From a virus (taxonomy: Duplodnaviria; Heunggongvirae; Uroviricota; Caudoviricetes): 30,320 bases of DNA. The notes under the pieces are model-generated. The model had not been told where the DNA came from. It saw nothing but the letters and a program-made list of their open reading frames with translations, and ran no database searches. The stretch lies in IMG/VR virus record IMGVR_UViG_2534681626_000018. The stretch is one strand, 5' to 3'. Below are positions 1 through 25,440 of this stretch, piece after piece (position 1 is the stretch's first letter; each line of letters opens with the position of its first letter). Position numbers and translations under genes: made by a program.

Positions 1-996
1 TTATGGACGCATTATGGACATTCCTGACACCGGGTTAAGAGTCACAGCATCTTGTAAGAAATCCGGTGCAAAGTGTGCGTAGGTCATAGTTTGCTGAATG
101 TTAGAATGACCCAGGATGCGCTGCAATGTGATTATGTTACCTCCATTCATTATAAAATGTGTGGCAAATGTATGCCTCAAAACATGCACTGCCTGTCCGT
201 CAGGTAAATCGGGTTTTACTTCCCTGAGAGCATTGCGCACTTTGTAGTAACTGGCATTAAAAAGCCTGCCTGAATTTTTGGTCTTGATCCGTTTAATCAG
301 GTCCTGCGAAACGGGAATTGTCCTGCGCTTTCCGTTTTTAGTTTTCATAAACGTAACCATCTGGTTAATGATGTGTTCAGCTTTCAAATTAGACACTTCA
401 CTCCAGCGTCCACCAGTAGAAAGGCAGACCAGAGTTGCATTTAACTCATCACCATCAAGCATGGATAACAGCCGCGTAATCTCTTCACTGGACAAAAAAG
501 CCATTTCAGTAACAGCTTCACGTAACCGCTTAACCTCACGGAACGGGTTGTGAGAGTGGTATTCACCGGCGTCAATTAACTTGGTGAACATCCCGCTCAT
601 TATTGCCAGATGCCGATTTACGCTGGCTGGTTTAAGACCATCGTTCATCATTACAACGCGATAATCAGTTATCGTTTTCTTTGTTAGCTGGTCAGCTCTG
701 GACACTCCCATTTCTGCAAATTTGGCGATTATTGTCGTCAAACGCCCCCGTTCAATATTTCCACGCTCATGTGATTTTCCGTGATATATCCACCATCTGC
801 CTAACAACTCTGTAAGAGTTCGGCGGTCGGCTGGCTTCTCCAGCCACTCTTTGTTGTGGTAGTTAACCAGCACATGACGTTCGAATGCTTGAGCTTCACC
901 TTTAGTTTTAAATTTCCGCCTGATACGTTTTCCATCTGCACCCTGCGGTCTGACGTCCACTTCATAACGACCATCATCGAGCTTTTTAATAGACAT
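1..996 (-). CDS. int: Phage tyrosine integrase (site-specific recombinase)
   Basis: 331-aa ORF with C-terminal catalytic region typical of tyrosine recombinases (HVLRHTFATHF ... TMTYAHF); first gene of a P2-type early-left operon; stop codon at window position 1-3. Confidence 0.9.
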   Translation of the reverse strand: MSIKKLDDGRYEVDVRPQGADGKRIRRKFKTKGEAQAFERHVLVNYHNKEWLEKPADRRTLTELLGRWWIYHGKSHERGNIERGRLTTIIAKFAEMGVSRADQLTKKTITDYRVVMMNDGLKPASVNRHLAIMSGMFTKLIDAGEYHSHNPFREVKRLREAVTEMAFLSSEEITRLLSMLDGDELNATLVCLSTGGRWSEVSNLKAEHIINQMVTFMKTKNGKRRTIPVSQDLIKRIKTKNSGRLFNASYYKVRNALREVKPDLPDGQAVHVLRHTFATHFIMNGGNIITLQRILGHSNIQQTMTYAHFAPDFLQDAVTLNPVSGMSIMRP

Positions 997-3346: not shown

Positions 3347-3618
3347 GTATTCGTATCGAAATTGGCGAACGTTATGTCGTTACCAGTGACAGCTTTCAGT
3401 TTATTCTCCACGAGAAAAAGAGAGCGGAAAGCGGTAAAAACGCCGGTCAGGAATGGCTGGCGGTGGTTGGTTATTACCCGAAATTAAGCCAGCTCGTTTC
3501 CGGCCTGATGCATCACGATATTCTGACCGGAAGCGCAAAGTCTTTTGCTGATTTAAACGCGCAGGTTGAGCAACTCAGCAGGCGTTGTTCAGAGGCTTTT
3601 GGCTCATATGGCCGTTAA
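3343..3618 (+). CDS. Hypothetical early protein
   Basis: 91-aa ORF; ATGA overlap with the upstream gene; its 3' end overlaps the A start. Confidence 0.5.
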   Translation: MSIRIEIGERYVVTSDSFQFILHEKKRAESGKNAGQEWLAVVGYYPKLSQLVSGLMHHDILTGSAKSFADLNAQVEQLSRRCSEAFGSYGR

Positions 3619-5893
3619 AGCCTCCGGGCGTTTTGTCCCTCCGTCAGCATTTGCTGCAGGCACCGGTAAGGCGTTTACCGGTGCTTATGCATGGAACGCG
3701 CCACGCGAGGCCGTCGGGCGCGAAAGACTCCTTACACGTGACGAGATGCGTCAGGTGCAAGGTGTTTTATCCACGATTAACCGCCTGCCTTACTTTTTGC
3801 GCTCGCTGTTTACTTCACGCTATGACTACATCCGGCGCAATAAAAGCCCGGTGCACGGGTTTTATTTCCTCACATCCACTTTTCAGCGTCGTTTATGGCC
3901 GCGCATTGAGCGTGTGAATCAGCGCCATGAAATGAACACCGACGCGTCGTTACTGTTTCTGGCAGAGCGTGACCACTATGCGCGCCTGCCGGGAATGAAT
4001 GACAAGGAGCTGAAAAAGTTTGCCGCCCGTATCTCATCGCAGCTTTTCATGATGTATGAGGAACTCTGCGATGCCTGGGTGGATGCGCATGGCGAAAAAG
4101 AATCGCTGTTTACGGATGAGGCGCAGGCGCATCTGTATGGTCATGTTGCTGGCGCTGCACGTGCTTTCAATATTTCCCCTCTCTACTGGAAAAAATACCG
4201 TAAAGGACAGATGACCACGAGGCAGGCATATTCTGCCATTGCCCGTCTGTTTAACGATGAGTGGTGGACTCATCAGCTTAAAGGCCAGCGTATGCGCTGG
4301 CATGAGGCGTTACTGATTGCTGTCGGGGAGGTGAATAAAGACCGTTCTCCTTATGCCAGTAAACATGCCATTCGTGATGTGCGTGCGCGCCGCCAGGCAA
4401 ATCTGGAATTTCTTAAATCGTGTGACCTTGAAAACAGGGAAACCGGCGAGCGCATCGACCTTATCAGTAAGGTGATGGGAAGTATTTCTAATCCTGAAAT
4501 TCGCCGGATGGAGCTGATGAACACCATTGCCGGTATTGAGCGTTACGCCGCCGCAGAGGGTGATGTGGGGATGTTTATCACGCTGACCGCGCCGTCAAAG
4601 TATCACCCGACACGTCAGGTCGGAAAAGGCGAAAGTAAAACCGTCCAGCTAAATCACGGCTGGAACGATGAGGCATTTAATCCAAAGGATGCGCAGCGTT
4701 ATCTCTGCCGCATCTGGAGCCTGATGCGCACGGCATTCAAGGATAATGATTTACAGGTCTACGGTTTGCGTGTCGTCGAGCCACACCACGACGGAACGCC
4801 GCACTGGCATATGATGCTTTTTTGTAATCCACGTCAGCGTAACCAGATTATCGAAACCATGCGTCGCTACGCGCTCAAAGAGGATGGCGACGAAAGAGGA
4901 GCCGAGCGAAACCGTTTTCAGGCGAAACACCTTAACCGGGGCGGTGCTGCGGGGTATATCGCGAAATACATTTCAAAAAATATCGACGGCTATGCACTGG
5001 ATGGTCAGCTCGATAACGATACCGGCAGACCTCTGAAAGATACTGCCGCGGCTGTTACTGCATGGGCGTCAACGTGGCGCATCCCGCAATTTAAAACGGT
5101 TGGTCTGCCGACAATGGGGGCTTACCGTGAACTACGCAAATTGCCTCGCGGCGTCAGCATTGCTGATGAGTTTGACGAACGCGTCGAGGCTGCACGCGCT
5201 GCCGCAGACAGTGGCGATTTTGCGTTGTATATCAGCGCGCAGGGTGGGGCAAATGTCCCGCGCGATTGTCAGACTGTCAGGGTTGCCCGTAGCCCGTCGG
5301 ATGACGTTAACGAGTACGAGGAAGAAGTCGAGAGAGTGGTCGGCATTTACGCGCCGCATCTCGGCGCGCGTCATATTCATATCACCAGAACGACGGACTG
5401 GCGCATTGTGCCGAAAGTTCCGGTCGTTGAGCCTTTGACTTTAAAAAGCGGCATCGCCGCGCCTCGGAGTCCTGTCAATAACTGTGGAAAGCTCACCGGT
5501 GGTGATGCTTCGTTACCGGCTCCCACACCTTCTGAGCACGCCGCAGCAGTGCTTAATCTGGTTGATGACGGTGTTATCGAATGGAATGACCCGGAGGTCG
5601 TGAGGGCGCTCAGAAGCGCATTAAAACACGGTCTGAGAAGACCAAACCGTCAGCAAAGAAACGGAAACCCGTTAAAACCGCATGAAATAGCGCCATCGGC
5701 CAGACTGACCCGGTCAGAACGATTGCAAATTACCCGTATCCGCGTTGACCTCGCTCAGAACGGTATCAGGCCGCAACGATGGGAGCTTGAGGCGCTGGTG
5801 CGTGGCGCGACCGTAAATTATGACGGGAAAAAATTCACGTATCCGGTCGCTGATGAGTGGCCGGGATTCTCAACAGTAATGGAGTGGACATGA
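3608..5893 (+). CDS. A: Rolling-circle replication initiation endonuclease, P2 A-like
   Basis: 761 aa from ATG 3608 (the ORF track's 3566 start is probably too far upstream); contains an HUH-type motif (GTPHWHMMLF) and the AGYIAKYISK region; length matches P2 A. Confidence 0.85.
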   Translation: MAVKASGRFVPPSAFAAGTGKAFTGAYAWNAPREAVGRERLLTRDEMRQVQGVLSTINRLPYFLRSLFTSRYDYIRRNKSPVHGFYFLTSTFQRRLWPRIERVNQRHEMNTDASLLFLAERDHYARLPGMNDKELKKFAARISSQLFMMYEELCDAWVDAHGEKESLFTDEAQAHLYGHVAGAARAFNISPLYWKKYRKGQMTTRQAYSAIARLFNDEWWTHQLKGQRMRWHEALLIAVGEVNKDRSPYASKHAIRDVRARRQANLEFLKSCDLENRETGERIDLISKVMGSISNPEIRRMELMNTIAGIERYAAAEGDVGMFITLTAPSKYHPTRQVGKGESKTVQLNHGWNDEAFNPKDAQRYLCRIWSLMRTAFKDNDLQVYGLRVVEPHHDGTPHWHMMLFCNPRQRNQIIETMRRYALKEDGDERGAERNRFQAKHLNRGGAAGYIAKYISKNIDGYALDGQLDNDTGRPLKDTAAAVTAWASTWRIPQFKTVGLPTMGAYRELRKLPRGVSIADEFDERVEAARAAADSGDFALYISAQGGANVPRDCQTVRVARSPSDDVNEYEEEVERVVGIYAPHLGARHIHITRTTDWRIVPKVPVVEPLTLKSGIAAPRSPVNNCGKLTGGDASLPAPTPSEHAAAVLNLVDDGVIEWNDPEVVRALRSALKHGLRRPNRQQRNGNPLKPHEIAPSARLTRSERLQITRIRVDLAQNGIRPQRWELEALVRGATVNYDGKKFTYPVADEWPGFSTVMEWT

Positions 5894-6550: not shown

Positions 6551-6773
6551 AGAACGCCGCCAGTCGTGAAACTTGTTTTCAGGGCTGGCGGGGTTGAACA
6601 ACGAGCGTAGCGAGGCGTTAGTTGACAGACATATTTTTACTGCGTTGGTGCCGGTTTTTGACGGTTGAAAGGAGTTAGGTTGGAGAGCTAACAACTTACA
6701 AATATTCAAAAGTAAGCATCCTGTTGCTAACATGAGGTCGATTTTTTATGTGGATGATGCAAAAAGGATAGCT

Positions 6774-7505
6774 ATGGATACTATAATCGCTTTTCTATCA
6801 CTCGCTTTTTTCGTTGCTTTCTTCATCGGGTTAATCAAGCCATCACTGGTGCGAATGCCAAACCGCAAACGTGCAAGTGCGGTTTATCTCGGAGGAGGTT
6901 TTGTATTGAGCATAATTGGTTCAATACTCTATCCAACAGAAAAAAGCCAGCCAGTTGATAAAACTGAAACATCAACCGTTGCAGAACATAAAGTCCAAAA
7001 AACATTCGAATATGGTGAAAAAACACTCAAGGAATATCGGAACGAGTCAAAGAAAACACGACACGATATTGTGAATAGTTACATTGATTTTAAGGAAGTT
7101 CCAGCCACCGCGTCAGATGCGTTTTATGCCTGCATGAGTGAATATACATTTACCAAAGATGATGAGTTGAAACTCGGTGATGTTCTTGGGTGGTGCTTTA
7201 ATGATTATGAAAATGACCCGAATTCACTAAACAATAAAATCAATCTTGATACATTTCAGAGTAATTTTAGTGGTTGGGATGGTTCTTATCGTCCATTGGA
7301 AAAACTAATTAAAGATAATATGAACGATGATTCATCTTATAAACATGTATCAACGGTATATCATCTGGTTTTGAATAAAGACCCGCATGCCATTGTGAAA
7401 ACCACGTTTCGCGGAACTAATGCTTATGGCGGAGTGGTGAAACAGACGATTGCTGCGCGTGTTGATATAAAAACTGGTAAGGTGATATCAATCATAGATA
7501 ATTGA
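6774..7505 (+). CDS. Membrane-anchored protein of unknown function (two N-terminal TM helices + about 180-aa soluble domain)
   Basis: ATG 6774 preceded by AAAGGA; hydrophobic stretches IIAFLSLAFFVAFFIGLI and VYLGGGFVLSIIGSIL; about 38% GC against about 53% for the phage backbone; followed by an intrinsic terminator. Confidence 0.6.
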   Translation: MDTIIAFLSLAFFVAFFIGLIKPSLVRMPNRKRASAVYLGGGFVLSIIGSILYPTEKSQPVDKTETSTVAEHKVQKTFEYGEKTLKEYRNESKKTRHDIVNSYIDFKEVPATASDAFYACMSEYTFTKDDELKLGDVLGWCFNDYENDPNSLNNKINLDTFQSNFSGWDGSYRPLEKLIKDNMNDDSSYKHVSTVYHLVLNKDPHAIVKTTFRGTNAYGGVVKQTIAARVDIKTGKVISIIDN

Positions 7506-7614: not shown

Positions 7615-8397
7615 ATGAAAATTATAAACCAACTTAAGAAGTTTGATAAGAAAAGAACGCCAGATGATGGCCGTATTAGTTTGTTATATGAAAACGCGAT
7701 TAAGTATGATATGTACTCTGTATATATTAAAGATAAAAATGATACAGAATACCTCTTTGACTGTTTGGTTGATGGGAAGATAAAGGCTTTTAAATGGGAT
7801 GATGAGGAGCGTAGATTTCATATAAGTTCATGCTTGGATATTTCTGAGGTTACGCCTGATTCTTTTTTTGGTGTTTACTACTACCGTGCGCATGAGTTGC
7901 GATTTAACTCTTTAAATGATTTAACATTTTTAAGGGAGTTGTTCTTTAGAGTAAAGTCTAATTATGAAAATATAAAGTTTAGTCGTGAAAAATATATTTA
8001 TCGACAGCAAAAAAAAGAAATAACTGATGTGATGTTTGTTCTCTCAACGATTATAAGAATGTATCGTGAATGGGATGCTCAAACTGTGTTTAGTGAGTTT
8101 TCAATAATGACCGAAGTCGCTGGTAGTTTATGGGTATACCATGACGATAAAAACAGGATGCGTAAAGAGCTTCGTTTATGCCTGAATTCTCTTGTTCAGA
8201 ATGGAGATCTTGTTGAAACAAGTAGTGGATTTAGGCCAACAGGAAAGGCACTGAACACAATATCTACATTCAATAAAGATGAGGTGCGGTACAGAGAGAA
8301 TTTGAGTACTCAGAAGAAAATGTTTTGGGCTACTTTTTTCGCAGCAGTCGGCGGCGTAGGAAGTATGATTGCAGCTATAATAGGGCTTCTAAAATGA
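7615..8397 (+). CDS. Tail-anchored membrane protein of unknown function (soluble N-terminal domain + C-terminal TM helix)
   Basis: 260-aa ORF; C-terminal hydrophobic segment FWATFFAAVGGVGSMIAAIIGLL; about 33% GC, lysine/tyrosine-rich; no motif I can assign. Confidence 0.6.
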   Translation: MKIINQLKKFDKKRTPDDGRISLLYENAIKYDMYSVYIKDKNDTEYLFDCLVDGKIKAFKWDDEERRFHISSCLDISEVTPDSFFGVYYYRAHELRFNSLNDLTFLRELFFRVKSNYENIKFSREKYIYRQQKKEITDVMFVLSTIIRMYREWDAQTVFSEFSIMTEVAGSLWVYHDDKNRMRKELRLCLNSLVQNGDLVETSSGFRPTGKALNTISTFNKDEVRYRENLSTQKKMFWATFFAAVGGVGSMIAAIIGLLK

Positions 8398-18976: not shown

Positions 18977-19885
18977 ATGCCGATTATCGACCTGAACCAG
19001 CTACCCGCACCGGATGTGGTCGAGGAGCTGGACTTTGAAACCATTCTCGCCGAACGCAAGGCGACACTGATTTCCCTTTACCCGGAAGACCAGCAGGAGG
19101 CGGTCGCCCGTACCCTGACGCTGGAATCCGAGCCTCTCGTCAAACTGCTGGAGGAAAATGCTTATCGTGAGCTTATCTGGCGTCAGCGTGTGAATGAGGC
19201 CGCACGGGCGGTGATGCTGGCCTGTGCCGCCGGTAATGACCTTGATGTGATTGGTGCCAATTACAACACCACGCGCCTGATTATCACTCCGGCAGATGAT
19301 TCGACTATCCCGCCGACACCGGCAGTGATGGAATCTGACACCGATTATCGTCTGCGTATTCAGCAGGCGTTTGAGGGCTTAAGCGTCGCCGGGTCGGTGG
19401 GAGCCTATCAGTATCATGGTCGCAGTGCCGACGGGCGTGTCGCGGATATCTCTGTCACCAGTCCGTCTCCGGCCTGCGTCACCATCTCCGTACTGTCACG
19501 TGAAAATAACGGTGTCGCATCCGAAGACCTGCTGGCTGTGGTGCGTAACGCCCTTAATGGCGAGGACGTCAGGCCGGTGGCCGACCGCGTGACCGTGCAG
19601 TCTGCCGCCATCGTTGAATACCAGATAAACGCCACGCTTTACCTTTACCCTGGTCCCGAAAGCGAACCCATCCGCGCTGCCGCCGTGAAAAAACTGGAAG
19701 CGTATATCACGGCACAGCACCGGCTGGGGCGTGACATCCGTCTGTCTGCCATTTATGCCGCTTTGCATGTGGAAGGTGTGCAGCGTGTCGAACTGGCTGC
19801 ACCACTGGCCGACATCGTGCTCAACAGTACGCAGGCGTCTTTCTGTACCGAATACCGCGTCGTGACCGGAGGCTCGGATGAGTGA
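18977..19885 (+). CDS. J: Baseplate protein J
   Basis: 302 aa; position as P2 J. Confidence 0.85.
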   Translation: MPIIDLNQLPAPDVVEELDFETILAERKATLISLYPEDQQEAVARTLTLESEPLVKLLEENAYRELIWRQRVNEAARAVMLACAAGNDLDVIGANYNTTRLIITPADDSTIPPTPAVMESDTDYRLRIQQAFEGLSVAGSVGAYQYHGRSADGRVADISVTSPSPACVTISVLSRENNGVASEDLLAVVRNALNGEDVRPVADRVTVQSAAIVEYQINATLYLYPGPESEPIRAAAVKKLEAYITAQHRLGRDIRLSAIYAALHVEGVQRVELAAPLADIVLNSTQASFCTEYRVVTGGSDE

Positions 19886-20489
19886 TTCGCGACTGCTGCC
19901 GACCGGCTCATCACTGCTTGAAGTTGCCGCCGCAAAAGCCTGTGCGGAAATTGAAAAAACGCCGGTCAGTATTCGTGAGCTGTGGAACCCGGATACCTGT
20001 CCGGCAAATCTGCTGCCGTGGCTGGCGTGGTCATTTTCGGTTGACCGCTGGGATGATAAGTGGCCGGAAGCGACAAAACGCGCTGTTATCCGCGATGCGT
20101 ATTTCATTCACTGCCATAAGGGCACTATTGGTGCGATTCGCCGTGTGGTGGAGCCACTCGGCTATCTGATTGAGGTGAGGGAGTGGTGGCAGCTCAACGA
20201 GGAGCCGGGGACGTTCCGTATCGTTGTCGGCGTGCTTGAGCAGGGTATTACCGAGGAAATGTATCAGGAGCTGGAGCGCCTCGTTGCTGATGCAAAACCG
20301 GCAAGCCGCCATCTGACGGGACTGGCTATCAGTTTAAGTACAACCGGCAACATTTTTGCCGGTGCGGGATGCTATCACGGCGACGCCCTGACGGTTTATC
20401 CCTACACCCCGGAGGCCATTATTGTCGGAGGGGATTATTTCCCGGCCTCGGCCATTCATTTAATTGATAACCTGAGAGTAAACGCATGA
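19878..20489 (+). CDS. I: Baseplate/tail-fibre attachment protein I
   Basis: 203-aa ORF overlapping the J stop (ATGAGTGA); true start may be downstream. Confidence 0.8.
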   Translation: MSDSRLLPTGSSLLEVAAAKACAEIEKTPVSIRELWNPDTCPANLLPWLAWSFSVDRWDDKWPEATKRAVIRDAYFIHCHKGTIGAIRRVVEPLGYLIEVREWWQLNEEPGTFRIVVGVLEQGITEEMYQELERLVADAKPASRHLTGLAISLSTTGNIFAGAGCYHGDALTVYPYTPEAIIVGGDYFPASAIHLIDNLRVNA

Positions 20490-21655
20490 CAGTGAAATAC
20501 TACGCCATTCTGACTAATCAGGGCGCAGCACGGCTGGCTAACGCGACGATGCTCGGCAGTAAGCTGAATCTGACGCAAATGGCCGTTGGTGATGCGAATG
20601 GTGTCTTGCCGACACCAGACCCGGCACAGACAAAACTGATTAACCAGAAACGCATCGCGCCGCTGAATCTTCTGAGTGTTGACCCGAACAACCAGAGCCA
20701 GATTATTGCGGAGCAAATCATCCCTGAGAACGAGGGCGGATTCTGGATCCGTGAGATTGGGCTTTATGATGATGAAGGCGTACTCATTGCGGTGGCGAAC
20801 TGCCCGGAAACGTACAAACCGCAGTTGCAGGAAGGCAGCGGTCGTACCCAGACTATCCGCATGATTCTGGTTGTCACGAATACCGAAGCCATCACGCTGA
20901 AAATCGACCCGTCGGGGGTACTGGCGACCCGTAAATACGTGGATGATGAAGTCCTGGAATTAAAGCTGTATGTGGATGACCAGATGAGAAACCACATTGC
21001 CGCACAGGATCCTCATACCCAGTATGCACAGAAACATAATCCGACATTTACCGGAGAACCAAAAGCGCCGACGCCTGCCGCAGGAAATAACACCACGCGG
21101 ATTGCGACCACTGCGTTTGTACAGGCCGCTATTACCGCTCTGATTAACGGTGCGCCTGCCACGCTGGATACACTGAAAGAAATTGCCGCAGCCATTAACA
21201 ATGACCCGAAATTCAGCACCACCATTAACAATGCGCTGTCAGGTAAGCAGCCACTGGATGAGACGCTGACTCATTTGAGTGGGAAGGATGTTGCCGGTCT
21301 TCTCGCATACCTTGGTTTGGGAGAAGCCAGATATGTCATTCAGCGAGGAGCTAATGCCAATGGTGCATGGGTACGCTGGTCAGATGGTGCAATAGAAGTA
21401 TTTGGAACCGGTGGATCTAATGATAATGGACTGGCTAAAGTCGTTTACCCAATTGCACTGCCTAAACTTTCACGTTTTATCAGTATCGCAGAAAGAATAA
21501 GAACGGATTACGAGAGCACACCTAATAATGTTCACGTTTCAATGATCGTGGATGATCAGGTAACAAATACCGGCTTTTATGCCCGCTGCCAGATGTACGA
21601 CGGCAGACCATCATCAAATGCTTTTTCATGGAGGGTTTATTGTGCGCCTGTTTAA
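20486..21655 (+). CDS. H: Tail fibre protein H (constant N-terminal part + currently expressed variable C-terminal tip)
   Basis: 389 aa; N-terminus resembles P2 H; the last about 114 codons (from 21314) lie inside the invertible segment. Confidence 0.85.
   Translation: MTVKYYAILTNQGAARLANATMLGSKLNLTQMAVGDANGVLPTPDPAQTKLINQKRIAPLNLLSVDPNNQSQIIAEQIIPENEGGFWIREIGLYDDEGVLIAVANCPETYKPQLQEGSGRTQTIRMILVVTNTEAITLKIDPSGVLATRKYVDDEVLELKLYVDDQMRNHIAAQDPHTQYAQKHNPTFTGEPKAPTPAAGNNTTRIATTAFVQAAITALINGAPATLDTLKEIAAAINNDPKFSTTINNALSGKQPLDETLTHLSGKDVAGLLAYLGLGEARYVIQRGANANGAWVRWSDGAIEVFGTGGSNDNGLAKVVYPIALPKLSRFISIAERIRTDYESTPNNVHVSMIVDDQVTNTGFYARCQMYDGRPSSNAFSWRVYCAPV
21300..21325. repeat. Left crossover site of invertible segment (hix/gix-like, 26 bp)
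   Basis: TTCTCGCATACC-TT-GGTTTGGGAGAA: two imperfect 12-bp half-sites around a 2-bp core; lies inside H at codons AYLGLGEA. Confidence 0.6.
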
Positions 21656-21839
21656 TCCAGTTACTTTGACTGAAGTAATCCCCGGTCTTCATGACGTGAC
21701 CGGGGCTATTGAATTACCGGAGGACAACTGGTTTTTTACTATGACAGAAATTCCTCAGGGCATGGAGCTAACAATTAATGAGAAAGGCGAACCAATACTG
21801 ATTGAGGTTAATCAGTCTCAGGGAATACAGGCCAAATAA
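21642..21839 (+). CDS. Small ORF downstream of H (possible short or truncated tail-fibre assembly protein)
   Basis: 65 aa from GTG 21642 with GGAGGG 6 nt upstream; no recognisable Tfa C-terminal motif; overlaps the convergent Tfa' 3' end. Confidence 0.3.
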   Translation: MRLFNPVTLTEVIPGLHDVTGAIELPEDNWFFTMTEIPQGMELTINEKGEPILIEVNQSQGIQAK

Positions 21840-22413
21840 TATCAGGCGCGGTGCTGGTATCTATTGCCGTCACCGCGTCAATGTAATCCAGCACAGCGTT
21901 AAGGCGGGTTGTTTCTGCCTGCGTCAGTTTACGTCCGGCCTGCAATTTCAGCTGAATCAGACTGATGGAAGCCATAGCAGCATCAATCAGAGACTGGCGC
22001 TGTACTTCTGCTGCATCTACTGCGGCGCTATGCTGTGCCTCGGTATCTGTTACCCATTTCTCACCATCCCATTTATCGTATGGCGTTAATGGGGCAAAAG
22101 TGGTCGTATTTTCAGGGTAATCCCCCGGCACAGTAATTTCTTTTGATTCCCCCGTTTCGATGCCATAGACAATTTCACCGCGATGGTCTGGCACATATTC
22201 CCATGAGTTAAAATCTGCAGAACGGCAGATTGCATAACCAGCCTTATGTGTGCCGGGCGCATCGGTACAGGAATTGGCAGGAATACCCACCCCCACAGGC
22301 AGATACTCAACCGATGAGGATATGTATTCGCGGGTGTCGCCCCGGTAGTTGTACACAGTGATTTCTCCTGCCACGGTGGCAATAAACGCACTGTTTAATT
22401 TTGCTTTCGCCAT
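21808..22413 (-). CDS. Tail fibre assembly chaperone (Tfa family), alternative-orientation copy
   Basis: 201 aa; C-terminal motif ...AIDTSTAPDIIWPVFPE typical of lambda Tfa / Mu U-type chaperones. Confidence 0.8.
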   Translation of the reverse strand: MAKAKLNSAFIATVAGEITVYNYRGDTREYISSSVEYLPVGVGIPANSCTDAPGTHKAGYAICRSADFNSWEYVPDHRGEIVYGIETGESKEITVPGDYPENTTTFAPLTPYDKWDGEKWVTDTEAQHSAAVDAAEVQRQSLIDAAMASISLIQLKLQAGRKLTQAETTRLNAVLDYIDAVTAIDTSTAPDIIWPVFPETD

Positions 22414-22997
22414 TATGCAGCCCTCACGATGTAGTTAAATGCAATGTTGCGCGGACGGGTTTCAGATGCGTACACGGACGGATGAGTAACACCGTCTGAG
22501 GTCGATGCCCTGTAAGTCCTGAATGGTGGTAATCCGGTCGCTATTGCGTTGTTATTACCTGTTGGTGAAAGGTCCTTGCGATAAAGGATTACCTTGTCTG
22601 CCCTACTGGTTGCGTCCCATGATGTTCCTGACGACGATGGACTCAGGGCCGCACTGGGTATTTCTGGTACATCGTTGAAAACCGCATAGATATCGCTTTC
22701 CATCTGGTCTGACGGATTACCCACTCCGGTTGGCAGAGCGTGCGCATGGTCCTGGAAAGCAAAACTCTGACAACTGAGAAGTATGCGCCCCTCATCAATC
22801 CCTCGCCCGTCATCCCAGCCACGAATAAACTCACCACGTAAATCTGGCAATTTATTTGTCGGGTAAGCCTTTGCCAGTTCCGGGTATTCTTCAGCAGAAA
22901 AAGCCGCACCATTGCATTTCAGCCAGCCTGTTGGCGGAGTGGCTGAAGGCCACGGAACAGGGACACCAACAGGTAATGCAGAGCCTTCTCCCAAACC
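22413..22997 (-). CDS. Alternative tail-fibre C-terminal tip (Hv'), promoterless and startless; expressed only after inversion
   Basis: 195 codons in frame from the crossover core; the ORF's upstream part (MMPFARYFCIFINV) lies outside the segment; reading frame across the core matches H (see findings). Confidence 0.7.
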   Translation of the reverse strand, partial: GLGEGSALPVGVPVPWPSATPPTGWLKCNGAAFSAEEYPELAKAYPTNKLPDLRGEFIRGWDDGRGIDEGRILLSCQSFAFQDHAHALPTGVGNPSDQMESDIYAVFNDVPEIPSAALSPSSSGTSWDATSRADKVILYRKDLSPTGNNNAIATGLPPFRTYRASTSDGVTHPSVYASETRPRNIAFNYIVRAA

Positions 22998-23011
22998 AAC
23001 GTTTATGAAAA
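22986..23011. repeat. Right crossover site of invertible segment (hix/gix-like, 26 bp)
   Basis: TTCTCCCAAACC-AA-CGTTTATGAAAA; the half-site TTCTCCCAAACC is the exact reverse complement of the left site's inner half GGTTTGGGAGAA; core AA is complementary to the left core TT. Confidence 0.6.
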
Positions 23012-23065
23012 TGCAGAAATAACGAGCAAATGGCATCATTCCTGCTTTTGTCAGAGGGATCCACT

Positions 23066-23659
23066 ATGCTTATTGGCTATGTACGCGTGTCAACAAATGA
23101 CCAGAACACGGAATTGCAGCGTAACGCGCTGGAGTGTGCAGGATGTGAGCTGATTTTTGAGGACAAAATCAGCGGCACGAAGTCCGACAGGCCGGGACTG
23201 AAAAAACTGCTCAGGACATTATCGGAGGGGGATACACTGGTAGTCTGGAAGCTGGACCGGCTGGGGCGTAGTATGCGGCATCTGGTCATTCTGGTTGAGG
23301 AGCTGCGCGAACGCGGCATTAATTTTCGCAGCCTGACGGATGCCATTGATACCAGCACGCCGATGGGGCGTTTTTTCTTTCATGTGATGGGTGCCCTGGC
23401 TGAAATGGAGCGAGAACTCATTGTCGAGCGGACACGCGCAGGACTGGAAGCGGCCAGAGCCAAAGGTCGTATTGGTGGCAGACGACAGAAACTCACCGCG
23501 AGTGAGTGGGAGCAGGCCGGGCGTTTGCTGGCTGCAGGGGAGCCACGTCAACGCGTGGCACTGATTTTTGATATTGGTCTGTCCACGCTCTATAAAAAAT
23601 TTCCCGCCTCAGTGACAAAAAATAAATTGTGTCATCCCTTAGCCAACCGGGACAAATAG
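23066..23659 (+). CDS. Serine DNA invertase (Hin/Gin/Cin/Pin family)
   Basis: 197 aa from ATG 23066 (GAGGGA upstream); N-terminal MLIGYVRVSTNDQ with the catalytic serine context; C-terminal helix-turn-helix region. Confidence 0.85.
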   Translation: MLIGYVRVSTNDQNTELQRNALECAGCELIFEDKISGTKSDRPGLKKLLRTLSEGDTLVVWKLDRLGRSMRHLVILVEELRERGINFRSLTDAIDTSTPMGRFFFHVMGALAEMERELIVERTRAGLEAARAKGRIGGRRQKLTASEWEQAGRLLAAGEPRQRVALIFDIGLSTLYKKFPASVTKNKLCHPLANRDK

Positions 23660-23718: not shown

Positions 23719-24909
23719 ATGAGTGACTATCATCACGGCGTGCAGGTGCTGGAGATTAACGACGGCACCCGCGTCATTTCCACCGTATCCACTGCCATTG
23801 TCGGCATGGTCTGCACGGCCAGCGATGCGGATGCGGAAACCTTCCCCCTCAATAAACCTGTGCTGATTACCAATGTGCAGAGCGCAATTGCAAAGGCCGG
23901 TAAAAAAGGCACGCTGGCGGCATCGTTGCAGGCCATCGCTGACCAGTCAAAACCGGTCACCGTTGTCGTGCGCGTGGAAGACGGCACCGGCGACGACGAA
24001 GAAACGAAACTCGCGCAGACCGTTTCCAATATCATCGGCACCACCGACGAAAACGGTCAGTACACCGGGCTAAAAGCCCTGCTGGCGGCGGAGTCGGTAA
24101 CCGGTGTTAAACCGCGTATTCTCGGTGTGCCGGGGCTGGATACCAAAGAGGTGGCTGTTGCACTGGCATCCGTCTGTCAGAAGCTGCGCGCTTTCGGGTA
24201 TATCAGCGCATGGGGCTGTAAAACCATTTCCGAGGTGAAAGCCTACCGCCAGAATTTCAGCCAGCGTGAGCTGATGGTCATCTGGCCGGATTTCCTCGCA
24301 TGGGATACGGTCACCAGTACCACCGCCACCGCGTATGCCACCGCCCGTGCGCTGGGTCTGCGTGCCAAAATCGACCAGGAGCAGGGCTGGCATAAAACGC
24401 TGTCCAACGTCGGGGTGAACGGTGTTACCGGCATCAGCGCCTCTGTATTCTGGGATTTGCAGGAGTCCGGCACCGATGCTGACCTGCTTAACGAGTCAGG
24501 CGTCACAACGCTGATTCGCCGTGACGGTTTCCGCTTCTGGGGTAACCGTACCTGCTCTGATGACCCGCTGTTCCTCTTTGAAAACTACACCCGCACCGCG
24601 CAGGTGCTGGCCGACACGATGGCTGAGGCGCATATGTGGGCGGTGGACAAGCCTGTCACCGCAACGCTGATTCGCGACATCGTTGACGGCATCAATGCCA
24701 AATTCCGTGAGCTGAAAACAAACGGCTATATCGTGGATGCGACCTGCTGGTTCAGCGAAGAATCCAACGATGCGGAAACCCTCAAGGCCGGAAAACTGTA
24801 TATCGACTACGACTATACACCGGTACCTCCTCTTGAAAACCTGACCCTGCGCCAGCGTATTACCGATAAATACCTGGCAAATCTGGTCACCTCGGTTAAC
24901 AGCAATTAA
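23719..24909 (+). CDS. FI: Tail sheath protein FI
   Basis: 396 aa; same length and position as P2 FI. Confidence 0.9.
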   Translation: MSDYHHGVQVLEINDGTRVISTVSTAIVGMVCTASDADAETFPLNKPVLITNVQSAIAKAGKKGTLAASLQAIADQSKPVTVVVRVEDGTGDDEETKLAQTVSNIIGTTDENGQYTGLKALLAAESVTGVKPRILGVPGLDTKEVAVALASVCQKLRAFGYISAWGCKTISEVKAYRQNFSQRELMVIWPDFLAWDTVTSTTATAYATARALGLRAKIDQEQGWHKTLSNVGVNGVTGISASVFWDLQESGTDADLLNESGVTTLIRRDGFRFWGNRTCSDDPLFLFENYTRTAQVLADTMAEAHMWAVDKPVTATLIRDIVDGINAKFRELKTNGYIVDATCWFSEESNDAETLKAGKLYIDYDYTPVPPLENLTLRQRITDKYLANLVTSVNSN

Positions 24910-24921
24910 GGAGCCTGACCG

Positions 24922-25440
24922 ATGGCAATGCCGCGCAAACTCAAGTTAATGAACGTCTTTCTGAACGGCTACAGCTATCAGGGCGTTGCAAAGTCCGTCA
25001 CGCTGCCAAAACTGACCCGTAAGCTCGAAAACTATCGCGGTGCGGGGATGAACGGCAGCGCACCGGTAGACCTCGGCCTTGATGACGATGCGCTGTCAAT
25101 GGAGTGGTCGCTCGGTGGCTTCCCGGATTCGGTTATCTGGGAGCTTTACGCCGCAACCGGTGTGGATGCCGTGCCGATTCGTTTTGCAGGCTCTTACCAG
25201 CGCGACGATACCGGCGAAACGGTGGCCGTCGAAGGGGTCATGCGTGGACGTCAGAAAGAAATCGACACCGGCGAGGGTAAACAGGGAGAAGACACCGAGT
25301 CGAAAATCTCCGTGGTCTGCACCTATTTCCGGCTGACGATGGACGGCAAGGAGCTGGTCGAAATCGACACCATCAACATGATTGAGAAGGTGAACGGCGT
25401 CGACCGGCTGGAGCAACACCGCCGAAATATCGGCCTGTGA
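24922..25440 (+). CDS. FII: Tail tube protein FII
   Basis: 172 aa; same length and position as P2 FII. Confidence 0.9.
   Translation: MAMPRKLKLMNVFLNGYSYQGVAKSVTLPKLTRKLENYRGAGMNGSAPVDLGLDDDALSMEWSLGGFPDSVIWELYAATGVDAVPIRFAGSYQRDDTGETVAVEGVMRGRQKEIDTGEGKQGEDTESKISVVCTYFRLTMDGKELVEIDTINMIEKVNGVDRLEQHRRNIGL

What the first reader, a model, noticed from the sequence alone, without database searches (positions are those of the whole stretch)
21300..23011. Hin/Gin-type invertible tail-fibre switch with an in-frame crossover inside gene H
Two 26-bp sites in inverted orientation resemble hix/gix sites: 21300..21325 (TTCTCGCATACC-TT-GGTTTGGGAGAA) and 22986..23011 (TTCTCCCAAACC-AA-CGTTTATGAAAA). The left core TT occupies codon positions 2-3 of Leu in ...AYLGLGEA of H. 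The right core, read on the minus strand, occupies positions 2-3 of Val in ...INVGLGEG of the alternative tip ORF. Inversion therefore yields an in-frame fusion, H constant part (about 276 aa) + Hv' (195 aa), and brings the 201-aa Tfa chaperone under the late promoter. The system is thus likely functional and able to switch host range. A serine invertase gene (23066..23659) lies immediately outside the right site.
Basis: partly seen in the sequence, partly recalled or inferred. Interest (0 to 1): 0.6.

Follow-up and report, generated by a model that had tools for sequence, protein, structure and literature searches.

The report
Invertible tail-fibre switch in P2-like prophage
This is a working but ordinary Gin/Pin-type DNA inversion switch in a P2-like E. 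coli prophage: it swaps the tip of the tail fibre, and sister isolates of the same strain carry the same element in both orientations.

Summary
The window is a P2-like prophage, 100% identical to a contig of ETEC isolate E. coli P0299917.8.

- **Sites:** two 26-bp sites (21300-21325, 22986-23011) lie in inverted orientation. They are the only hix/gix/pix-like sites in the window. The right site is identical to the invertase-proximal site of prophage e14.
- **Contents:** they bracket a 1.69-kb segment with two convergent modules. One is a short tip plus a 65-aa ORF, currently fused to H. The other is a collar-type tip plus a 201-aa Tfa, currently silent.
- **Invertase:** the adjacent 197-aa serine recombinase is 79% identical to Mu Gin and 88% to e14 Pin. 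It keeps Ser9 and the residues proposed to contact Fis and the enhancer.
- **Frame:** in-silico inversion gives an in-frame 470-aa H followed directly by Tfa.
- **Decisive evidence:** seven near-identical sibling draft assemblies carry the element, four in the window's orientation and three inverted. One inverted contig matches my in-silico inversion base for base across both junctions.

Such switches are textbook (Mu G, P1 C, e14 P), and inversion in P2-like prophages has been shown experimentally. Interest is therefore low. The one uncharacterised item is the conserved 65-aa ORF.

The parts
20486..21311 (+). Constant N-terminal part of tail-fibre gene H (codons 1-275 plus the first base of codon 276)
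   Evidence: PF12571 Phage_tail_fib, E 2.6e-61. It follows P2 gene I (PF09684). 97.9% DNA identity to phage pro483 up to position 21327 and none beyond it.
21300..21325 (.). Left crossover site (pix/gix/hix-like, 12-2-12; core TT at 21312-21313), inside the H reading frame
   Evidence: Identical to the pro483 and FDN-9 sites; 2 mismatches to the e14 site inside stfP.
21312..22999 (.). Invertible segment, core to core (1,688 bp)
   Evidence: Found inverted, at 99.94-100% identity, in sibling assemblies L019, L021 and L023. Found at 99.7% in the opposite orientation in a diverged P2-like prophage, L007.
21314..21655 (+). Hv: the tip currently fused to H (113 aa), giving the 389-aa H
   Evidence: ORF. 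phrog_2557 and phrog_2712 structural/tail-fibre hits. Weak, below-threshold match to PF21882 Gp53-like_C (E 0.0023).
21642..21839 (+). Conserved 65-aa ORF downstream of Hv (GTG start preceded by GGAGG); function unknown, possibly a tip-specific accessory or assembly factor
   Evidence: 123 homologues, mostly 57-66 aa (a few longer calls up to 91 aa), across Enterobacterales; an identical copy sits on about 1,000 contigs. phrog_5400, unknown function. No Pfam hit. No profile link to Tfa proteins.
21808..22413 (-). Tfa': 201-aa tail-fibre assembly chaperone of the silent module
   Evidence: PF02413 Caudo_TAP, E 2e-30; phrog_105, E 2e-96. About 84% DNA identity to e14 tfaE and 86-90% to the HK97/HK106 stf-tfa region.
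22413..22997 (-). Hv': silent alternative tip (195 aa after the crossover) with a collar domain. The ORF formally runs on to an ATG at 23039, outside the segment
   Evidence: PF07484 Collar, E 1.8e-15; phrog_523 and phrog_3100. Contiguous Hc-Hv' junctions occur in about 60 complete E. coli genomes at roughly 94-98% identity.
22986..23011 (.). Right crossover site (core AA at 22998-22999)
   Evidence: Identical to the invertase-proximal site of e14 (K-12) and of pro483.
23066..23659 (+). Serine DNA invertase (197 aa), Gin/Pin/Hin/Cin family
   Evidence: Resolvase + HTH_7. Matches the Gin structures 3UJ3/4M6F at E 7e-95. 79% identical to Gin, 88% to e14 Pin, 95-96% to P2-like prophage invertases. 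phrog_125 'DNA invertase'.
23087..23150 (.). Putative Fis-dependent recombinational enhancer inside the 5' end of the invertase gene (inferred)
   Evidence: This stretch is nearly invariant at the DNA level between the window, pro483, FDN-9, e14 pin and Mu gin. A match to the Fis consensus GNNYRNNWNNYRNNC lies at 23136-23150, 144.5 bp from the site centre; the same distance holds in Mu and e14. Identical-codon use is highest in codons 1-35 (0.6-0.8, against 0.3-0.55 in codons 76-135).

Best explanation
The region is an active two-state DNA inversion switch of the Gin/Cin/Pin/Hin type, in the tail-fibre gene of a P2-like (Peduovirus) prophage of ETEC strain E. coli P0299917.

**Mechanism.** The 197-aa serine invertase (23066..23659) binds the two 26-bp sites as dimers. 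It synapses them, most likely on a Fis-bound enhancer in the first ~85 bp of its own gene. It cleaves at the 2-bp cores (TT/AA) and inverts the 1.69-kb segment.

**The two states.**
- Window state: the constant 275 codons of H are fused to a 113-aa tip, followed by a 65-aa ORF.
- Inverted state: the same constant part is fused in frame to a 195-aa collar-type tip, followed by its 201-aa Tfa chaperone.

Virions from one lysogen population therefore carry one of two receptor-binding tips.

**Shown here:** the sites, the reading frames, the family of the recombinase, and the existence of both orientations in nature for this very element.

**Inferred:** the role of the enhancer and Fis, catalysis by the local invertase rather than one acting in trans, and a change of host range.
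For: **The prophage.** Pfam finds GPA, Tail_P2_I, the fibre N-terminus, sheath, integrase and Cox. Flanks are 96-98% identical to phage pro483, which has the same gene order and an annotated DNA invertase.

**The sites.** They are unique in the window and match real e14, pro483 and Mu sites.

**The frame.** In-silico inversion is in frame and places Tfa' directly after the new H.

**The invertase.** It is intact, with Ser9. K46, K47, R50, Q150, R153 and L154 correspond to Hin residues 47, 48, 51, 151, 154 and 155. PMC3798978 reports the basic character of 47/48/51 and the identity of 151/154/155 as conserved specifically in Fis/enhancer-dependent invertases.

**The enhancer region.** It is conserved in sequence and in distance from the site.

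**Direct evidence of switching.**
- L016 (APYR01000126.1) is 100.000% identical to the window over 9,594 nt.
- L018, L020 and L022 show the same orientation.
- L019, L021 and L023 (99.94-100% identical) show the segment inverted.
- L019 equals my in-silico inversion across both junctions; its only 3 mismatches lie over 2 kb away.
- The exact H protein is named for E. coli P0299917.8.
- Sahl et al. 2015 describe nine clonal colonies from that one patient (PMC4462620).

**Between strains.** L005 and L007/L008 share backbone (96-97%) and segment (97%) but differ in orientation, with breakpoints at the sites.

**Published precedent.** Inversion in P2-like prophages and in e14 has been measured by sequencing and PCR (PMC4272514).
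Against: - No experiment or read-level data for this strain were available. Orientation differences are seen between assemblies, not within one culture.
- That all seven sibling assemblies are P0299917 colonies is inferred from consecutive WGS prefixes and near-identity. Only one is named.
- The breakpoints can be placed only within the 15-nt identical stretch 21312-21326, not at the core itself.
- Only one of the two expected Fis sites matches the strict consensus.
- No sigma-70-like promoter was found for the invertase.
- The invertase has Q141 where close relatives have P (GGRRQKL against GGRRPKL). The position varies in the family, and this exact protein occurs on 23 or more contigs.
- Host-range change is untested.
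Confidence: 0.9

Rival explanations
1. The switch does invert, but the enzyme responsible acts in trans. It would be another Pin/Gin-type invertase in the same genome (e14 or another prophage), and the local invertase would be weak or inactive.
For: The right site is identical to that of e14. Cross-complementation among Gin, Cin, Pin and Hin is established knowledge. The local enzyme carries Q141 in the minor-groove arm where its nearest relatives have P. No clear promoter was found.
Against: The gene is intact, with the catalytic Ser9 and the residues proposed to contact Fis and the enhancer. The same exact protein is kept in several different P2-like prophages (L015, L017, L024). The arm position varies among active enzymes: it is P in Gin, and from memory R in Hin.
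Confidence: 0.06
2. The two orientations in public assemblies do not come from site-specific recombination. They would be assembly artefacts, or rare RecA-dependent recombination between the short inverted repeats, and the switch would be a fossil.
For: All sibling assemblies are short-read drafts. Five of the seven have a contig end in or near the segment.
Against: The repeat is only 27 nt, with 15 nt identical, which is shorter than sequencing reads and too short for efficient RecA recombination. L019 spans both junctions in one contig and matches the predicted product exactly. Complete genomes of other strains show the same inversion. Contig breaks inside an invertible segment are what mixed orientation in a culture would produce.
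Confidence: 0.03
3. It is a multi-site shufflon-like system with more than two states, like the three-repeat P2-like locus of EPEC E2348/69.
For: Such a variant exists in another P2-like prophage (PMC4272514).
Against: Only two sites in the whole window come within 6 mismatches of the site pattern; the next best positions have 7 or more. Only two tip modules are present.
Confidence: 0.01

Closest known systems
e14 P-segment / Pin system of E. coli K-12 (stfP-tfaP / tfaE-stfE / pinE)
   Same: - The invertase-proximal site is identical, and the other site differs at 2 of 26 positions.
- Pin is 88% identical to the window's invertase.
- The segment is of similar size and has the same convergent layout, with the invertase just outside.
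- tfaE and the start of stfE are about 85% identical in DNA to the window's silent module.
- Inversion of e14 was confirmed by sequencing and PCR (PMC4272514).
   Different: e14 is a defective lambdoid element; this element sits in a P2-like prophage that looks complete up to the window's end. The second module here is a short tip plus a 65-aa ORF, not StfP/TfaP. The invertase has a tail about 13 aa longer at the C-terminus.
Phage Mu G segment / Gin (and P1 C segment / Cin)
   Same: The crossover lies inside the fibre gene. There is a constant N-terminus with two alternative C-termini, each followed by its own downstream gene. The invertase gene is adjacent. Gin is 79% identical. The sites have the same 12-2-12 design. 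The 5' coding region that holds the enhancer in gin is conserved (Kahmann 1985, as cited in PMC3798978).
   Different: The G segment is about 3 kb, against 1.69 kb here. The core dinucleotide is TC/GA in Mu and TT/AA here, as in e14. The phage family and the tips differ.
P2-like prophages and phages with invertible fibre tips (phage pro483; the two-state P2-like locus of EPEC E2348/69)
   Same: pro483 has the same backbone (96-98%), identical sites at the same place in H, and a 95% identical invertase. Inversion in a P2-like prophage of EPEC was shown by whole-genome sequencing (PMC4272514).
   Different: The cassette content differs. pro483 carries two tip + Caudo_TAP pairs. The window carries the short tip with the 65-aa ORF on one side. 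FDN-9 and UTAK-18 are the only complete E. coli genomes with this backbone joined to this tip in one contiguous alignment.
Salmonella Hin / hix flagellar phase variation
   Same: Same recombinase family, the same TT/AA core, and the same conservation pattern at the residues proposed to contact Fis and the enhancer.
   Different: Hin flips a promoter and does not fuse coding sequences. No direct sequence comparison with full-length Hin was possible here; only the 52-residue DNA-binding domain in the PDB was matched.

Membership tests
Fis/enhancer-dependent serine DNA invertase systems (Gin/Cin/Pin/Hin) | Small (~190 aa) serine recombinase: N-terminal catalytic domain with the nucleophilic Ser9/10, and a C-terminal HTH | tested here: met
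   PF00239 + PF02796. Residues 1-182 align to Gin at E 7e-95 with Ser9 present. 79-88% identical to Gin and Pin.
Fis/enhancer-dependent serine DNA invertase systems (Gin/Cin/Pin/Hin) | Two 26-bp imperfectly palindromic sites in inverted orientation with matching 2-bp cores | tested here: met
   The cores are TT and AA (TT on the minus strand). These are the only two such sites in the window.
Fis/enhancer-dependent serine DNA invertase systems (Gin/Cin/Pin/Hin) | Recombinational enhancer in cis with two Fis sites, in the 5' part of the invertase gene about 100 bp from the nearest site | tested here: inconclusive
   The homologous stretch is almost invariant across five elements, including Mu gin. 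One strict Fis-consensus match lies at the same distance as in Mu and e14. Synonymous conservation is raised. The proximal site was placed only from memory of the hin enhancer; nothing was shown for binding.
Fis/enhancer-dependent serine DNA invertase systems (Gin/Cin/Pin/Hin) | Invertase residues proposed to contact Fis and the enhancer (Hin K47, R48, K51, Q151, R154, L155) | tested here: met
   The window has K46, K47, R50, Q150, R153 and L154. The residue list comes from PMC3798978.
Fis/enhancer-dependent serine DNA invertase systems (Gin/Cin/Pin/Hin) | The segment really inverts | tested here: met
   Sibling assemblies at 99.94-100% identity show 4 in the window's orientation and 3 inverted. 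L019 equals the in-silico product. This is comparative evidence, not an experiment.
Fis/enhancer-dependent serine DNA invertase systems (Gin/Cin/Pin/Hin) | Dependence on Fis and on DNA supercoiling | not testable with these tools
   Needs in vitro or fis-mutant assays.
Phage tail-fibre tip switching (Mu G, P1 C, e14 P type) | Crossover inside the fibre gene, so that one constant N-terminus is joined in frame to either of two C-termini | tested here: met
   (389-aa and 470-aa products). The natural inverted contig L019 encodes the predicted fusion.
Phage tail-fibre tip switching (Mu G, P1 C, e14 P type) | Each alternative tip is followed by its own tail-fibre assembly (Tfa/U) gene | tested here: inconclusive
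   Hv' is followed by a Caudo_TAP Tfa. Hv is followed by a 65-aa ORF with no detectable Tfa homology.
Phage tail-fibre tip switching (Mu G, P1 C, e14 P type) | The two states give different host ranges | not testable with these tools
   Needs adsorption or plaque assays with orientation-locked lysogens.
P2-like phages (Peduovirus) | P2 gene content and order around the locus (J, I, H ... FI, FII, E, T; replication gene A; cox; integrase) | tested here: met
   Pfam hits. The ORF map. 96-98% DNA identity of the flanks to Peduovirus pro483.
Multiple-inversion systems (shufflon-like, Min, EPEC three-repeat P2-like locus) | Three or more crossover sites | tested here: not met
   Only two sites come within 6 mismatches of the pattern.

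The most novel reading that the evidence does not exclude
The conserved 65-aa ORF (21642..21839) may be a new, minimal kind of tip-specific assembly or accessory factor, unrelated to Caudo_TAP chaperones. In every locus examined it follows the short Hv tip, starting at the same place. If so, the switch toggles between two mechanistically different tip-maturation systems, not just two receptor specificities.
Probability: 0.3. Interest if true: 0.35.

Novelty: new member of a known kind. Interest (0 to 1): 0.2.

Why it matters
It matters little for basic biology. Gin/Cin/Pin/Hin inversion switches and tail-fibre tip switching are textbook, and inversion in P2-like prophages has already been measured.

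Three practical points remain:
- This prophage can release virions with two different tips, which bears on host-range prediction for P2-like phages.
- Annotation pipelines call the silent tip a separate 'phage tail protein' and miss the alternative 470-aa H.
- Contig breaks at this locus in draft genomes are a signature of the switch.

The comparison of sister colonies from one patient is a neat natural demonstration of frequent switching. The only open question is what the conserved 65-aa ORF next to the short tip does.

Tried and rejected
- **Structure of the 65-aa ORF.** The single-sequence model had mean pLDDT 51 and was not used, so no fold search was run.
- **Profile comparison of the 65-aa family.** Comparison with the window's Tfa', pro483 Tfa and Mu U gave nothing (probabilities 0.1-2.4%).
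- **Context of distant homologues of the 65-aa ORF.** tblastn against phage records found one hit only, phage S164.
- **Scan of species-representative genomes for the right site.** It found 3 loci and added nothing.
- **RNA genes.** Rfam and tRNA scans of the window were empty.
- **Promoter scan.** No sigma-70-like promoter was found upstream of the invertase.
- **Two calls failed on a wrong reading frame** and were repeated.
- **Literature.** A search for the hin enhancer sequence found only a primer list. The supplement of Sahl 2015, which would link accessions to isolates, is not held.
- **Rejected readings.** These were a shufflon-like multi-site system, the 65-aa ORF as a truncated gene (homologues are mostly the same length), and a fossil switch.
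Full report
**1. What the window is.**
The window is an almost complete P2-like prophage.
- It encodes an integrase (1..996, minus strand), Cox, replication protein A (3566..5893), and portal and terminase on the minus strand.
- The late operon follows, through baseplate J and I (19878..20489), the tail fibre H (20486..21655), then sheath FI (23719..24909), tube, tape measure and D.
- The flanks of the studied region are 96-98% identical to Peduovirus pro483. That phage has the same gene order and an annotated 'DNA invertase' between the fibre genes and the sheath gene.
- The source is identified. A contig of assembly GCA_000358795.2 (APYR01000126.1, locus L016) is 100.000% identical to the window over the 9,594 nt fetched. 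The exact 389-aa H protein is named in NCBI for 'Escherichia coli P0299917.8'.

**2. The observation.**
- The inverted repeat 21300-21326 / 22985-23011 is the best in the region (27 nt, 81% complementary).
- Each site has the 12-2-12 anatomy of hix/gix sites. The left site is TTCTCGCATACC-TT-GGTTTGGGAGAA and the right site is TTCTCCCAAACC-AA-CGTTTATGAAAA.
- The inner half-sites are identical. The outer ones differ, giving 21 of 26 matches overall.
- Against the pattern TTCTCNNAAACCNNGGTTTNNGAGAA, these are the only two positions in the window with 6 or fewer mismatches (1 and 2). Shuffled windows give 0.015 hits at 4 or fewer mismatches.
- I extracted real sites from annotated records. The right site is identical to the invertase-proximal site of prophage e14 in E. 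coli K-12 and to that of pro483. The left site is identical to pro483's and differs at two positions from the e14 site inside stfP. Mu's two G-segment boundary sites share the design but have a TC/GA core.

**3. Anatomy of the segment (21312..22999).**
- Plus strand: the last 113 codons of H (Hv, 21314..21655). They hit phage structural and tail-fibre PHROGs. They match Pfam Gp53-like_C only weakly and below threshold.
- Overlapping the H stop by 14 nt, and preceded by GGAGG, is a 65-aa ORF (21642..21839).
- Minus strand: a 201-aa tail-fibre assembly protein (21808..22413; Caudo_TAP, E 2e-30). Upstream of it is a 195-aa collar-domain tip (22413..22997).
- This silent module is about 85% identical in DNA to e14 tfaE/stfE. 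It is 86-90% identical to the side-tail-fibre tip and tfa region of HK97 and HK106.
- Just outside the right site lies a 197-aa serine recombinase (23066..23659).

**4. Reading frames.**
- The left core TT is positions 2-3 of Leu276 (CTT) of H.
- The right core, read on the minus strand, is positions 2-3 of a Val codon (GTT).
- In-silico inversion between the cores gives a 470-aa H (275 constant + 195). The Tfa' ATG overlaps the new stop (TAATG).

**5. The recombinase and its cis element.**
- The protein aligns over residues 1-182 with the crystallised Mu Gin (E 7e-95) and has Ser9.
- It is 79% identical to Gin, 88% to e14 Pin and 95-96% to the invertases of pro483 and FDN-9.
- McLean et al. 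(PMC3798978) list features conserved specifically in Fis/enhancer-dependent invertases. [quoted passage not shown] The window has K46, K47, R50, Q150, R153 and L154 at the corresponding positions.
- One difference from close relatives is Q141 (GGRRQKL against GGRRPKL). That position varies in the family, and the same exact protein is found on at least 23 contigs in several prophage backgrounds.
- The DNA of the first ~30 codons is almost invariant between the window, pro483, FDN-9, e14 pin and Mu gin.
- A strict Fis-consensus match lies at 23136-23150, 144.5 bp from the centre of the right site. The distance is the same in Mu and e14.
- Identical-codon usage among ten invertase genes is 0.6-0.8 in codons 1-35, against 0.3-0.55 in codons 76-135.
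- This fits the known location of the enhancer inside gin (Kahmann 1985, cited in PMC3798978). It is conservation evidence only.
- No sigma-70-like promoter for the invertase was detected.

**6. Does it switch? Same element, sibling isolates.**
I looked up the exact invertase protein in public assemblies and aligned the loci to the window. This gave a group of seven draft assemblies with consecutive WGS prefixes (APYK to APYR). Their prophage is 99.94-100% identical to the window.

| Orientation | Locus (WGS prefix) | Junctions covered |
|---|---|---|
| As in the window | L016 (APYR) | both |
| As in the window | L018 (APYP) | both |
| As in the window | L020 (APYM) | right only |
| As in the window | L022 (APYL) | right only |
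| Inverted | L019 (APYQ) | both, in one contig |
| Inverted | L021 (APYO) | right only |
| Inverted | L023 (APYK) | right only |

- L019 is identical to my in-silico inversion over 7,117 nt, except for three substitutions at window positions 25235, 25601 and 26717. It encodes the predicted ...AYLGLGEGSALP... fusion followed by Tfa'.
- The breakpoints fall within 21312-21326 and 22985-23002. That is the core plus the identical inner half-site.
- Sahl et al. 2015 (PMC4462620) sequenced multiple colonies from single patients. They report nine closely linked isolates for subject P0299917.
- That all seven assemblies belong to that set is inferred; only APYR is named.
- Five of the seven contigs end in or near the segment. 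That is what mixed orientation in the sequenced cultures would cause, but this too is an inference.

**7. Does it switch? Between strains.**
- The exact 65-aa protein is found in P2-like prophages in both arrangements.
- L005 and L007/L008 share backbone (96-97%) and segment (97%) but differ in orientation, with alignment breaks at the sites.
- About 60 complete E. coli genomes contain a contiguous Hc-Hv' junction. Seventeen contain the Hc-Hv junction.
- L007 carries the window's segment at 99.7% identity in a backbone only 68-78% identical. Mu-like prophages (L009/L010) carry a 91% identical cassette. The cassette therefore moves between phage families, with homology ending at the sites.

**8. 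Comparison with what is known.**
- The system works like, and passes the testable membership criteria of, the Gin/Cin/Pin/Hin invertase family and the Mu G / P1 C / e14 P type of fibre-tip switch. Its closest relative is e14 Pin.
- Fis dependence and host-range change could not be tested.
- It is not a multi-site shufflon.
- Inversion of e14 and of P2-like prophage fibre loci in EPEC has been shown by sequencing and PCR (PMC4272514).

**9. What remains unexplained.**
- The 65-aa ORF belongs to a well-conserved family. Homologues are mostly 57-66 aa and all begin MRLFNP. They occur in Escherichia, Enterobacter, Salmonella, Citrobacter, Hafnia, Xenorhabdus and Erwinia.
- It has no Pfam domain and only a PHROG of unknown function.
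- It shows no profile similarity to Tfa proteins.
- No usable structure model was obtained.
- By position it is the counterpart of Tfa for the short tip. That is a guess.

**10. Verdict.**
The element is an active member of a well-known kind of switch. Interest is low (0.2). Novelty: new member of a known kind.

Noticed in passing
window 21642..21839 (+): A conserved 65-aa ORF overlaps the stop of H and has a GGAGG ribosome-binding site. Homologues, mostly 57-66 aa, occur across Enterobacterales, always starting MRLFNP. There is no Pfam domain and no detectable relation to Tfa chaperones. Among phage records it is found only in phage S164.
   Followed up: partly
window 6732..7505 (+) and 7615..8397 (+): Two cargo ORFs (257 and 260 aa) lie between replication gene A / a DUF3850-ASCH ORF and the portal gene. 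From memory, this is the position of the P2 tin/old accessory hotspot. They have no Pfam or PADLOC hit and only PHROGs of unknown function (phrog_3403, phrog_7611). The first has homologues of about 243 aa across Enterobacterales, all 'hypothetical'. They may be an undescribed defence or accessory pair.
   Followed up: partly
L007 3668-5370; L009/L010 3654-5243 (compared with window 21309..23011): The whole invertible cassette occurs at 99.7% identity in a P2-like prophage whose flanks are only 68-78% identical. It occurs at about 91% in Mu-like prophages (Mu Gp45/46/48-type baseplate genes). Homology ends at the crossover sites, so the cassette is exchanged as a unit between phage families.
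   Followed up: partly
window 23012..23039 (-) and 23030..23041: The silent tip ORF continues past the right site to an ATG at 23039. This gives a 208-aa ORF that RefSeq annotates as a separate 'phage tail protein'. The block ATGGCATCAT that supplies this ATG is nearly conserved even in Mu, with one base different. It could be part of the invertase promoter rather than a start codon.
   Followed up: no
L012 3263-3676 (compared with window 23266..23576): A related P2-like prophage (GCA_023238365.1) has the cassette in the Hv'-expressed orientation, but no invertase gene is called there. The alignment skips about 310 nt of the invertase. This looks like a switch locked by deletion.
   Followed up: no
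window 23606..23659: The invertase of this prophage group has a C-terminal tail about 13 aa longer than e14 Pin. The tail ends 60 nt before the sheath gene, so it runs into the region where the FI late promoter would be expected. The window's copy also has Q141 where relatives have P.
   Followed up: partly
L019-L023 contig ends (window 21043, 21894, 22034, 22190, 22290): Five of the seven sibling draft assemblies have a contig end in or just upstream of the invertible segment. This is consistent with mixed orientation in the sequenced cultures breaking the assembly graph.
   Followed up: no
window 21808..21839: The 65-aa ORF and the convergent Tfa' gene overlap by 32 nt at their 3' ends. The same overlap is present in every related locus examined.
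   Followed up: no
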